Part shown: one piece after another, positions 34,601 through 37,600 of the stretch
Position numbering within the stretch: position 1 is the first letter of the stretch
Layout: every line of letters begins with the position of its first letter
Source: Zootoca vivipara
Taxonomy: Eukaryota
NCBI RefSeq assembly: GCF_963506605.1
Contig: NC_083288.1
Location: forward strand, 40,424,001 to 40,488,000
Length of the DNA stretch: 64,000 bases
Direction: 5' to 3'
Made by a program: the position numbers

Positions 34601-37600
34601 TTCTGACGGGTCTCAGTAATTTAAAGATCTAAAAATAACTTTGTCAGATGATTTGATCTAAGAACCATCTTATTAAGCATTGTGTTTCTCACACAGGCCA
34701 AACATTGGTCTCTGAGAAATTCAGGTACAGGGTATGAATGTGATCACGAGGAAGTAATCTTTGCTTCTCAGAGTTATAAAGTGTCTGGGCAGGGACCTTC
34801 TATTCCTGCTTAGCATGACTAAAGGCTATATGCCTAACACCTTGAAAGCAAAGAATGCCTTAACTTGTGTATGCCTGTAGCCTCCAACATGTTTATTATC
34901 TCACATTTTTGCTTTCAAATGCTTGCAGGAAAGTTCCTCTCACAGAGGAGAAATGGAGAACATCACCGTGGTGACAGAATTCATCCTAATGGGCCTTTCT
35001 GATCTCCCAGCTGTCCGCTTCTCCCTCTTTGCTGCCTTTTTGCTCATTTACCTGGTCACCCTGGTGGGGAATGGCACCATTCTTCTTGCCATAGGAGCTG
35101 ACTCCCACTTGCACAACCCCATGTATTTCTTCCTGACTAACCTTTCCCTGCTGGACATCTTCTGCCCCACAGCTACGGTACCCAAGATGCTGGAGAACCT
35201 CTTGTCAGAGAGAAATACCATTTCCTTTGTTGGTTGTGTGCTGCAGCTCTACTTCCTGGTAGCCTTGGCAGGGACAGAGGTCTTCCTCTTAGCTGCCATG
35301 GCTTATGACCGCTATGTGGCCATATGCAACCCTCTGCGATACACGGTCGTCATGAGCAAGAAGCTTTGTCTTCAGATGGCTGCTGGTACATGGCTCACAG
35401 GGTTCCTCAACTCCTTGCTGCACACAGTCATGACCTTTACTCTACCTTATTGCAAATTGAACAGGGTCAATCAATATTATTGTGACATCCCTCCAGTCTT
35501 GGCCTTATCATGTGCTTCCTCCTATGCAGCTGAGATGGTTGTACTCATTGTTGGTGGGATTTTTGGTGTGGGGGCTTTTCTGGTGACGCTGGTCTCCTAC
35601 ATCTACATCATCTCCACCATCCTTCGGATCCGTTCTTCCGAGGGGAAGCGCAAGGCCTTCTCCACTTGCGCCTCCCATCTTACGGTGGTGTGCCTCTTCT
35701 ATGGGACGACCATCTTCACTTACATAAGGCCTTCCTCCAGCCACCATCCAGATCAGGACAGGCTGGTGAGCATGTTGTATGGGGTGATAACCCCCATGTT
35801 GAACCCCTTGATCTACAGCCTCAGGAACAAGGAGGTTAAAGGGGCTTTGAGGAGGGTCATTGTTCATAGCCGGCTCGTTGGTCTAAGACAGGCATAGGCA
35901 ACCTTGGCTCTCCAGATGTTTTGGAACTACAACTCCCATGATCCCTGACCACCGGCCCTGTTAGCTAGGAATCATGGGAGTTGTAGTTCCAAAACATCTG
36001 GAGAGACAAGGTTGCCTATGCATGGTCTAGGGGTATGATTCTCGCTTTGGGTGTGAGAGGTCCCGGGTTCAAATCCCAGACGAGCCCGAACACAAACTAT
36101 TTTGCGACCCAGGTGGTGCTGTGGGTTAAACCACAGAGTCTAGGGCTTGCTGATCAGAAGGTCGGCGGTTCGAATCCCTGTGATGGGGTGAGCTCCTGTT
36201 GCTCGGTCCCAACTCCTGCCCACCTAGCAGTTTGAAAGCACATCAAAGTGCAAGTAGATAAATAGGGACTGCTCCGTCAGGAAGGTAAACGGCGTTTCCA
36301 TGCACTGCTCTGGTTTGCCAGAAGCAGCTTTGTCATGCTGGCCACATGACCCGGAAGCTGTCTGCGGGCAAACGCCGGCTCCCTCGGCCTATAGAGCGAG
36401 ATGAGCGCTGCAACCCCAGAGTCGGACACGACTGGACCTGATGGTCAGGGGCCCCTTTACCTATTGTTCATAAACGCCAATAAAGTTGGAAGGGGGTGGG
36501 GAAAATATATGGCTAAGATACAATTATCCTATCCTATATGATTACCTACTAAAATAACCCAATCTCTGAAAAAGAAGAACAGAATTTAATCTGTTTCAAA
36601 TTATGATTGATCAACTGACAATGACCTGCTTTGAAGTTGTACCTGCTCCATCTTCTATGTTGTCAGCCCTTTAGATATTTGAAGATATCCTCTCCATCTC
36701 CTATGTTTAGCCTGGAAAAGAGAAGACTGAGGAGACATGATAGCTATATTTTATTTATCTGAAGGGCAGTCACATGGAAGATGCAGGAAGATTGATTCCT
36801 CCTGCTCCAGATGGTAGGACCGAAACAAATGGATTCAAATTACAAGATAGGACTGTCAAACTAATTGTCAAGAAGATCTTCCTGATGGTAAGAGCTGTTC
36901 AACAGTGGAGGGGGGTGGACACTCCTTCACTGGAGTGTTTAAAGGAGAGGCTGAAGGGACGACAGAGGATGAGATGGTTGGACAATATTCTCGAAGCTAC
37001 TAACATGAGTTTGACCAAAGTGCAGGAGGCAGTGGAAGACAGGAGTGTCTGGCGTGCTCTGGTCCATGGGGTCACAAAAGTCAGACATGATTAAGTGACT
37101 AAAGAACAACAGGGTGTCACGGTCCGGTCGGTGGGCGAGTGAAGCCCTGACTGAGGACGTCAGGACCAGAGGCAAGATGGTGATGTAGAAGCAGGAACAG
37201 GTCAGGGCTGAGGGTCCAGCAGCAGGCAGTCGCAGGGTCAAGGAGCAAGGAGTCGGCAAGGCAAGGGTCCAAGGGTCGAGGATCAAGGCGTCGGCAAGGC
37301 GAGGGTCCAAGGAGCAAGAGGCCAGAGGCAACCAGGCAGGGATAGCGTTGCTGTGGCAAAGAGCTGAAGGGAAATGCTGAGCTTTTATCCCTCCCAGCTC
37401 CTGCCACCAGGTGCAGTGAGGTATCAAGTGGCCTCACCTGTGCGGCCACTCCTTGCCTCTCCAGCACAAGCTGAGGTCTTCACCTGTGTGGCCACTCCTT
37501 GCTTCTCCAGCACAAGCTGAGGCAGGCCCCAGTCCTGCAAAGCACTACAGGCCCCGGTGCCTGACTCCTGCCCATACTCCTGACACAGGGTGACCATGTG

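What the first reader, a model, noticed from the sequence alone, without database searches (positions are those of the whole stretch)
35859..36472. Pre-tRNA-Pro/Sauria SINE chimeric retrocopy inserted as one unit
One 10-bp TSD (attgttcata, 35859-35868 and 36463-36472) brackets a 3-nt leader gcc, a complete tRNA-Pro(TGG) with no CCA, a trailer gaacacaaacta ending in TTTT (36100-36103, Pol III terminator-like), and then a full-length Sauria SINE. Paralogs show the empty site (25251-25271, 44757-44777). Leader plus trailer plus oligo-T looks like an unprocessed pre-tRNA. Inference: template switching or RNA ligation during BovB-driven reverse transcription (analogous to mammalian U6/L1 chimeras), or Pol III read-through from a tRNA gene into a SINE. 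It could be a one-off or the seed of a new composite SINE subfamily.
Basis: partly seen in the sequence, partly recalled or inferred. Interest (0 to 1): 0.75.

Follow-up and report, generated by a model that had tools for sequence, protein, structure and literature searches.

The report
Pre-tRNA-Pro/SINE chimeric retrocopy, split by MITE

Summary
The core observation holds. A perfect 10-bp duplication (35859-68 / 36463-72) brackets a 594-bp insert, and six paralogous olfactory-receptor 3' ends in the window lack it. The insert reads: GCC leader, tRNA-Pro(TGG) without CCA, 12-nt trailer, TTTT, then directly a full-length Sauria-type SINE.

One correction: the tRNA is not complete. A 136-bp hairpin MITE (35889-36024, 58-nt arms, hAT-like 8-bp duplication matching 6/8) splits its D-loop. 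That is why ARAGORN and Rfam find no tRNA at their normal thresholds.

Neither the tRNA part nor the SINE has a duplication of its own, so a single insertion event is the best reading. The oligo-T end of the pre-tRNA abuts the first base of the SINE. This favours a reverse-transcriptase jump from the SINE RNA's 5' end to the pre-tRNA's 3' end over Pol III read-through.

Not resolved:
- whether the MITE came before or after the retro-insertion;
- whether other copies of the junction exist, because no lizard genome could be searched.

Small-RNA/SINE and small-RNA/RTE chimeras in Anolis and pre-tRNA retrocopies in mammals are already in print. This is a new member of a known kind, of modest interest.

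The parts
35859..35868 (+). 5' copy of the target-site duplication ATTGTTCATA
   Evidence: 10/10 identical to 36463-72. The site is single-copy in 6 paralogs.
35869..35871 (+). 3-nt leader GCC (5' leader of the pre-tRNA, or untemplated bases)
   Evidence: It lies between the duplication and tRNA position 1. The two readings cannot be told apart.
35872..35888 (+). tRNA-Pro 5' piece (positions 1-17); the last 8 nt, GTCTAAGA, are the left copy of the MITE duplication
   Evidence: in the fold, the 5' piece's acceptor-stem bases (GGCUCGU, 35872-78) pair with the 3' acceptor strand (36080-86). One search gives the coordinates.
35889..36024 (.). 136-bp hairpin MITE, hAT-like (ends CAGG...CATG, 58-nt arms)
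   Evidence: arms 95% complementary; a relative at about 7010-7130 has the same CAGGC...GCCTG ends and a perfect 8-bp duplication, CTTTAACC; sub-threshold matches to Rfam mir-5408 and mir-9457 on both strands. Anolis hAT MITEs of this architecture and target preference.
36025..36087 (+). tRNA-Pro 3' piece (first 8 nt GTCTAGGG are the right copy of the MITE duplication; anticodon TGG at 36048-50; no CCA)
   Evidence: Rfam tRNA at 36023-36079, 25.8 bits, E 0.0013. One search gives the fold and the coordinates.
36088..36103 (+). 12-nt trailer GAACACAAACTA plus TTTT (Pol III terminator-like)
36104..36462 (+). full-length Sauria-type SINE with short ACCTTT-type tail (…CCCTTTACCT)
   Evidence: 7 other copies in the window. 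The 5' ends of the other copies align within 1-3 nt of 36104. The (ACCTTT)n tail motif is given for Sauria SINEs in PMC13295347; 6/359 private differences.
36463..36472 (+). 3' copy of the target-site duplication
34953..35897 (+). host gene: intact 314-aa olfactory-receptor ORF whose last codons are now supplied by the insert
   Evidence: Paralogs end ...VIVHK(R/C)Q* or similar. This copy ends ...VIVHSRLVGLRQA*, with its stop codon inside the MITE.

Best explanation
One retrotransposition event put a two-part cDNA into the last codons of an olfactory-receptor gene. The machinery that moves Sauria SINEs is given in the literature as Bov-B, an RTE-clade LINE. It nicked the target and copied a SINE RNA from its ACCTTT tail to its very 5' end. 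The reverse transcriptase then jumped to the oligo-U 3' end of a nearby unprocessed tRNA-Pro(TGG) primary transcript. It copied that transcript to its 5' end, including the trailer, the body without CCA and the 3-nt leader. Second-strand repair left a single 10-bp duplication around the whole.

A hAT-type hairpin MITE sits in the tRNA D-loop at a GTCTAGGG site that fits that transposon type's target preference. It either jumped into the retrocopy afterwards or was already in the source tRNA gene; I put these at about even odds.

Shown: the parts, their order and orientation, the single duplication, the empty paralogous sites, and the abutment of TTTT to the first SINE base.

Inferred: the enzyme, the template jump, and the order of the MITE event.
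For: - Single perfect 10-bp duplication. No duplication around the tRNA part alone. Around the SINE alone only a 5-mer, a length that 230 of 3000 random site pairs reach.
- Six empty paralogous sites.
- Both copies of the duplication carry the T of ATTGTT where four of the six paralogs have ATCGTT, so the duplicated sequence is this locus's own.
- The SINE is full length. The other copies start within 1-3 nt of the same position (the boundary of copy 30042 is fixed by its long duplication). TTTT touches that first base.
- The trailer and the missing CCA show the RNA was not 3'-processed.
- TTT lies 11-13 nt upstream of the duplication. This is one half of the Tn-TA signature reported for Bov-B and Sauria insertions (PMC13295347, sections 3.2-3.3 read).
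- Precedent, PMC4476161 (section 10 read): in Anolis, U6 chimeras with L1, L2 and RTE-like LINEs (3 each) and 6 with AnolisSINE2, attributed to template switching.
- Precedent, same paper (passage): cites L1-made pre-tRNA retropseudogenes in human.
Against: - The TA half of the Tn-TA signature is absent; the duplication starts A after C.
- The source tRNA-Pro gene and any other copies could not be looked for, because no tool here holds a lizard genome.
- Empty sites are paralogous, not orthologous.
- The leader is only 3 nt and could be untemplated bases.
- The MITE duplication matches only 6/8, while the outer one is 10/10 and the SINE has only 6/359 private differences. My hand estimate is P of about 0.03 for 2 or more mismatches if the MITE is younger than the insert. 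This hints that the MITE was already in the template. If it was, Pol III had to pass a TTTT at 35919, and the transcript was not an ordinary pre-tRNA.
- The SINE and tRNA-Pro identities rest partly on recall. No reference consensus was available to align.
Confidence: 0.6

Rival explanations
1. Pol III read-through. At a source locus a tRNA-Pro gene lies directly upstream of a Sauria SINE. Pol III ran past the weak TTTT into the SINE. The co-transcript, carrying the SINE's LINE-recognised tail, was retrotransposed as one RNA.
For: Four Ts is a minimal terminator (general knowledge). The SINE itself has no TTTT on this strand, so a read-through transcript could reach the tail. This model gives the same single duplication.
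Against: It needs a SINE to have landed with its first base 0-2 nt after a tRNA terminator. No remnant of a source-site flank lies between TTTT and the SINE head. That is a coincidence the template-jump model does not need (inference).
Confidence: 0.15
2. Two independent insertions: a tailless pre-tRNA retrocopy and a SINE landed at the same spot at different times.
For: A 5-nt match, CTATT, near the two SINE boundaries could be read as a tiny duplication.
Against: A match of 5 or more occurs in 230 of 3000 random pairs, and part of this one is SINE tail. The tRNA part alone has no flanking repeat. Where other SINE copies here have readable duplications, they are about 8-50 bp. The outer 10-mer brackets both parts exactly.
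Confidence: 0.05
3. Same single event, but the template was the transcript of a tRNA-Pro gene already broken by the MITE. With a 58-bp hairpin in place of the D-arm, the RNA could not be trimmed by RNase P or RNase Z. It therefore kept its leader, trailer and oligo-U and lingered as a jump acceptor.
For: The MITE duplication is 6/8 against the outer 10/10, and SINE private differences are 1.7%. The fold keeps the acceptor stem but replaces the D-arm with the hairpin. This would explain why an unprocessed form was captured.
Against: TTTT inside the MITE at 35919 on the transcribed strand. The right duplication copy restores most of the A-box at the normal distance from the B-box, which should move the start site into the MITE (inference). 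Counts are small: MITE plus its duplication 5/152 against SINE 6/359, not a significant difference (hand count). Ordinary pre-tRNAs are known to be retrocopied (passage in PMC4476161).
Confidence: 0.45
4. The unit is one copy of an already multi-copy composite SINE family (tRNA-Pro head, with or without the MITE, plus a Sauria body).
For: Composite SINEs made by adding a small-RNA head are documented, for example Bov-tA (PMC5786205, passages).
Against: No second copy of the tRNA part or the junction in 64 kb that hold 8 SINE copies. Two TTTT runs lie between the tRNA promoter and the SINE tail.
Confidence: 0.06

Closest known systems
U6/LINE and U6/SINE chimeric retrocopies in Anolis carolinensis (U6 with L1, L2, RTEX-2 and AnolisSINE2; PMC4476161, section 10 read)
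   Same: A small Pol III RNA ending in oligo-U is fused head-to-tail, in sense, upstream of a LINE or SINE 3' partner. One duplication brackets the whole. The events are attributed to template switching, in a lizard, and include an RTE-clade LINE and a SINE partner.
   Different: Here the 5' partner is a pre-tRNA rather than U6. The SINE partner is the Bov-B-dependent Sauria type rather than the L2-dependent AnolisSINE2. The SINE is full length, and a MITE splits the 5' partner.
Pre-tRNA / tailless tRNA retropseudogenes of mammals (Schmitz et al. 2004, seen only as cited in passages of PMC4476161)
   Same: Unprocessed tRNA precursors serve as templates for LINE reverse transcriptase.
   Different: Those are L1-made and stand alone. 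This one is joined to a SINE and presumably made by an RTE-clade enzyme that needs a specific 3' tail.
tRNA/LINE-1 chimeras in primates (bioRxiv 10.1101/2025.02.02.635956, passages read)
   Same: tRNA sequence and a retroelement share one duplication (21 loci reported).
   Different: Those are mostly half tRNAs in antisense, explained by twin priming. Here there is a whole precursor in sense orientation.
Bov-tA and other RTE-dependent composite SINEs (PMC5786205, passages read)
   Same: A tRNA-derived head is placed 5' of a Bov-B-dependent unit. The paper proposes a template switch as the way such heads are added.
   Different: Bov-tA is a high-copy family with a working head. Here there is a single copy, with terminators between head and tail and a head broken by a MITE.
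Short hairpin hAT MITEs of Anolis, such as hAT-N1_AC (135 bp, 57-bp inverted repeats, 8-bp duplication NYYTARRN/NTCTAGAN; PMC3014272, Table 1 seen)
   Same: 136 bp, 58-nt arms, ends starting CAG, 8-bp duplication, and a GTCTAGGG target that fits NTCTAGAN at 5 of 6 fixed positions. The first 16 nt match the hAT-HT1 repeat CAGTGATGGSSAACCT at 13/16 (by eye).
   Different: The terminal sequence is not that of hAT-N1_AC. The family name is unknown, and here the duplication matches only 6/8.

Membership tests
Bipartite chimeric retrocopy (small RNA + LINE/SINE, U6/L1 type) | Two unrelated transcripts fused in the same orientation | tested here: met
   tRNA part and SINE are both on the + strand and directly adjacent.
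Bipartite chimeric retrocopy (small RNA + LINE/SINE, U6/L1 type) | One target-site duplication around the whole, none around either part | tested here: met
   Whole unit 10/10; no repeat for the tRNA part alone; only a chance-level 5-mer for the SINE alone.
Bipartite chimeric retrocopy (small RNA + LINE/SINE, U6/L1 type) | Junction at the native 3' end of the 5' partner | tested here: met
   Trailer plus TTTT abuts the first SINE base.
Bipartite chimeric retrocopy (small RNA + LINE/SINE, U6/L1 type) | Empty pre-insertion site | tested here: met
   Six paralogous sites are empty. Orthologous sites are not testable here.
Bipartite chimeric retrocopy (small RNA + LINE/SINE, U6/L1 type) | Endonuclease target signature of the driving LINE (Tn-TA for Bov-B/Sauria) | tested here: inconclusive
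   TTT lies 11-13 nt upstream, but there is no TA at the nick (signature from PMC13295347).
Sauria SINE | Multi-copy element of about 350 bp with an (ACCTTT)n tail | tested here: met
   359 bp; 7 other copies at 83-89% identity; tails CCTTTACCT(TTACCTTT) (motif).
Sauria SINE | Match to the published consensus and to the Bov-B 3' end | not testable with these tools
   No repeat library or Bov-B copy was available. The name rests on the tail motif and on recall. Rfam does not call the SINE head a tRNA at E up to 1.
Intact tRNA-Pro(TGG) gene or retrocopy | Continuous cloverleaf recognised by tRNA finders | tested here: not met
   ARAGORN 0. Rfam gathering 0. The 3' piece scores 25.8 bits, below the cut-off of 29. 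The D-loop is split by 136 bp.
Intact tRNA-Pro(TGG) gene or retrocopy | Both halves present and pairing; anticodon TGG | tested here: met
   The acceptor halves pair in the fold of the uncut 235 nt. TGG is at loop positions 3-5. The match to the vertebrate tRNA-Pro sequence is recalled, not tested.
hAT-superfamily MITE | 8-bp target duplication and terminal inverted repeats starting CAG | tested here: met
   6/8 here, 8/8 in the relative near 7010-7130. Ends CAGG.../...CATG.
Composite SINE family | Many copies of the same junction with different duplications | not testable with these tools
   The junction 32-mer occurs once in the window. No genome of this organism could be searched.

The most novel reading that the evidence does not exclude
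A hAT MITE that landed in the D-loop of a tRNA-Pro gene turned that gene into a source of an unprocessable, hairpin-stabilised Pol III RNA with a free oligo-U end. Bov-B reverse transcriptase then captures this RNA repeatedly when it runs off Sauria SINE templates. On this reading the locus is one of several such chimeras and an early stage of a three-part composite retroposon (tRNA head, MITE, SINE).
Probability: 0.06. Interest if true: 0.6.

Novelty: new member of a known kind. Interest (0 to 1): 0.3.

Why it matters
It is a clean, datable example of a stringent RTE-clade system (Bov-B with its Sauria SINE) making end-to-end template jumps onto a nuclear Pol III precursor. That step has long been proposed for how SINE heads are acquired. 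It also shows three mobile elements nested at the stop codon of an intact olfactory-receptor gene, which rewrites the receptor's C-terminal tail. As a single locus it adds an instance rather than a principle. It would matter more only if the same junction proved to be multi-copy.

Tried and rejected
1. ARAGORN and Rfam at default thresholds found no tRNA. The MITE explains this. An E-value scan recovered only the 3' piece.

2. I did not cut out the MITE and join the two tRNA pieces for a tRNA finder. That joined step was left out. Instead the uncut 235 nt were folded and the pieces examined separately.

3. I tested whether the second MITE copy that has the same GGTCTAAG...GGTCTAGG flanks (56564-56713) sits in another tRNA-Pro remnant. 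Its flanks beyond those 9-mers are not similar to the tRNA beyond chance: 289 of 2000 (right) and 811 of 2000 (left) shuffles score as well. Rejected.

4. A first impression that SINE copy 30042 carries about 30 nt of extra 5' sequence was wrong. It is a duplication of about 49 bp.

5. Nested duplications for either part alone: none beyond chance.

6. Literature. Searches for 'Sauria SINE' with 'chimeric' or 'template switching', 'Sauria SINE' alone (21 papers, 20 listed), chimeric retrogenes with tRNA and pre-tRNA/SINE/chimera/trailer turned up no described pre-tRNA/Sauria SINE chimera. 'mir-5408' found 0 papers. In PMC13295347 the word 'chimer' does not occur. Supplementary tables of PMC4476161 and PMC13295347 and of the bioRxiv preprint were not seen and could list such loci.

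7. The collections on offer were not used for the junction search. The bacterial/archaeal genome set, phages, plasmids and E. coli cannot hold a lizard locus. The genome-wide check therefore stays undone.
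Full report
**What is there**

The window is a cluster of olfactory-receptor (OR) genes, with seven intact OR reading frames on the + strand. The finding lies at the 3' end of the OR frame 34953-35897.

ATTGTTCATA occurs at 35859-35868 and again at 36463-36472, 10/10 identical. Six paralogous OR 3' ends in the window run straight through this point as ...TTCATA|AACGCC... (ends at 25260, 44766, 51503, 58796, 29530, 21969). 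So 35869-36462 (594 bp) is an insertion with a 10-bp target-site duplication.

Both copies of the duplication carry ATTGTT where four of the six paralogs have ATCGTT. The duplicated sequence is therefore this locus's own. In a control of 3000 random site pairs from the window, 2 reached an exact flanking repeat of 10 or more.

**Anatomy of the insert** (coordinates checked)

| Coordinates | Part |
|---|---|
| 35869-71 | GCC leader |
| 35872-35888 | first 17 nt of a tRNA |
| 35889-36024 | 136-bp inverted-repeat element |
| 36025-36087 | rest of the tRNA; anticodon TGG at 36048-50; ends with the discriminator base, no CCA |
| 36088-99 | GAACACAAACTA trailer |
| 36100-03 | TTTT |
| 36104-36462 | 359-bp SINE ending ...CCCTTTACCT |

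It is not:

- ARAGORN finds no tRNA in the window.
- Rfam at gathering scores finds nothing.
- At relaxed thresholds only the 3' piece matches the tRNA model: 36023-36079, 25.8 bits against a cut-off of 29, model positions 8-63, E 0.0013.

I did not excise the element and join the halves for a tRNA finder; that joined step was left out. Instead I folded the uncut 235 nt. In that fold the 5' and 3' acceptor strands pair, the anticodon and T arms form, and a long hairpin stands where the D-arm should be (-133 kcal/mol, z = -12.5, 0 of 200 shuffles as stable). That the two halves together equal the vertebrate tRNA-Pro(TGG) sequence, apart from two CpG transitions, is my recollection of that sequence and not a tool result.

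**The overlooked element**

Its arms are 58 nt and 95% complementary. Its ends read CAGG...CATG, and it is flanked by GTCTAAGA and GTCTAGGG.

Five more diverged relatives lie in the window. The one next to the N run near 7010-7130 has ends CAGGC...GCCTG and a perfect 8-bp duplication, CTTTAACC. This is the hAT pattern.

Table 1 of PMC3014272 (seen) lists Anolis hAT MITEs with 8-bp duplications of consensus NTCTAGAN or NYYTARRN. It includes a 135-bp family with 57-bp inverted repeats. The tRNA-Pro D-loop site GTCTAGGG fits that preference.

The hairpin also gives sub-threshold matches on both strands to Rfam mir-5408 (62 and 60 bits, cut-off 90) and mir-9457. That suggests those microRNA families are built on the same kind of MITE.

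**The SINE**

Seven other copies are in the window at 83-89% identity: four near full length and three truncated. Tails read CCTTTACCT or CCTTTACCTTTACCTTT. PMC13295347 gives (ACCTTT)n as the Sauria SINE terminus (section 3.3). PMC3747384's table names Bov-B as the Sauria partner LINE. No reference consensus was at hand, so the name rests on that motif and on recall.

The other copies begin within 1-3 nt of the position aligned with 36104. The start of the copy at 30042 is fixed by a duplication of about 49 bp, 48/50 identical. The focal SINE is thus full length and TTTT touches its first base.

It has the fewest private differences of the five full-length copies, 6 of 359 (1.7%), against 7-25 in the others. 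It is therefore comparatively young.

**One event or two**

A scan for flanking repeats, allowing 4 nt of slack at each boundary, gave:

- the 10-mer for the whole unit;
- nothing for the tRNA part alone;
- only CTATT for the SINE alone.

A repeat of 5 or more turns up in 230 of 3000 random pairs, and part of that 5-mer is SINE tail. A single insertion is the economical reading.

**How it was made**

The RNA copied last kept its trailer, oligo-U and probably its leader, and it lacks CCA. It was therefore a primary Pol III transcript. Because its oligo-T abuts the SINE's first base with nothing between, I favour a template jump. The reverse transcriptase reached the 5' end of the SINE RNA and continued on the 3' end of the pre-tRNA.

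This has direct precedent:

- PMC4476161 (section 10 read) reports U6 chimeras in Anolis carolinensis with L1, L2 and RTE-like LINEs (three each) and six with AnolisSINE2. It concludes that template switching is general to non-LTR elements.
- A passage of the same paper cites pre-tRNA retropseudogenes in human.
- PMC5786205 (passages) proposes a template switch as the way small-RNA heads were added to RTE-derived units such as Bov-tA.
- The bioRxiv preprint 10.1101/2025.02.02.635956 (passages) reports 21 tRNA/L1 chimeras in primates, but these are mostly half tRNAs in antisense. The same preprint names RNA ligation (RtcB) and template switching as the two proposed routes to U6/L1 chimeras. I have no result on whether a pre-tRNA 3' end would be a ligase substrate.

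Read-through from a tRNA gene into an adjacent SINE would give the same product. It needs a SINE to have landed exactly after a tRNA terminator, which I rate less likely; this is inference only.

The Bov-B/Sauria 'Tn-TA' target signature of PMC13295347 is half met. TTT lies 11-13 nt upstream of the duplication, but the nick site is C|A, not T|A.

**Order of the MITE**

This stays open.

For 'already in the source gene':
- Its duplication matches only 6/8, while the outer one is 10/10 and the SINE is 1.7% diverged. By hand, P is about 0.03 for two or more mismatches if the MITE were the younger event. This is a soft number, because the 1.7% comes from a strict count.
- A hairpin in place of the D-arm would explain why the transcript escaped end-processing.

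For 'inserted afterwards':
- The MITE carries TTTT at 35919 on the transcribed strand.
- Its right-hand duplication restores most of the A-box at the normal distance from the B-box, which should shift the start site into the MITE (inference).
- Ordinary pre-tRNAs are known templates.
- Pooled counts (5/152 for the MITE plus its duplication, against 6/359 for the SINE) do not differ significantly.

**What could not be done**

No tool here holds a squamate genome.

Within the window the tRNA part and the 32-nt junction occur once.

**Verdict**

This is a real and nicely preserved chimeric retrocopy: pre-tRNA-Pro plus a full-length Sauria-type SINE, with a hAT MITE splitting the tRNA. It is a new member of a known kind.

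The 'seed of a new SINE' idea has nothing for it here. Against it stand two TTTT runs between the tRNA promoter and the SINE tail.

Noticed in passing
window 56564-56713: A second, much diverged copy (about 72% identity) of the hairpin MITE is flanked by the very same GGTCTAAG (left) and GGTCTAGG (right) as the focal copy. Each 8-mer occurs only twice on the + strand of the window, both times at these two MITEs. Its flanks beyond those 9-mers are not tRNA-like. The NTCTAGAN target preference explains part of the match. The shared extra bases, and the same A/G mismatch on the same side in both copies, are unexplained.
   Followed up: partly
window 34953-35897: The insertion sits three codons before the stop of an intact 314-aa olfactory-receptor frame. 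Paralogs end ...VIVHKRQ* or similar, with the stop overlapping an AATAAA. This copy ends ...VIVHSRLVGLRQA*, read from the leader, the tRNA 5' piece and the MITE, and its TAG stop lies inside the MITE terminal repeat. The old AATAAA is now about 600 bp further downstream.
   Followed up: partly
window 29987-30449: The Sauria-type SINE copy at about 30037-30400 has an unusually long target-site duplication of about 49 bp, 48/50 identical. This is at the top of the 10-49 bp range used in PMC13295347.
   Followed up: partly
window 35915-35998: The MITE hairpin matches Rfam microRNA precursor families mir-5408 (62.4 and 59.8 bits) and mir-9457 (48.7 and 46.7 bits) on both strands, all below their gathering score of 90. 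Those families look MITE-derived.
   Followed up: no
window 33733-33963 and 42219-42449: Two 5'-truncated SINE copies share their flanks on both sides. They are one old insertion copied by the segmental duplication that multiplied the OR genes, not two insertions.
   Followed up: no
window 22345-22581: A SINE fragment with long (TA)n runs on both sides.
   Followed up: no
window 25100-25337: An isolated fragment of an OR 3' end is 98% identical to the focal gene over 109 bp and has the empty site. It is preceded by two tandem copies of a GCTGGACCATAAAGAAGGCTG-like unit. It is the closest relative of the insertion site in the window.
   Followed up: no
window 62951-63856 (- strand): A 301-aa open frame with a CCHC-like zinc-knuckle motif (by eye), looking like a retroelement gag. 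It was not searched.
   Followed up: no
window 6865-7001: The only N run (137 bases) directly abuts the MITE copy near 7010-7130. It was left as it is.
   Followed up: no
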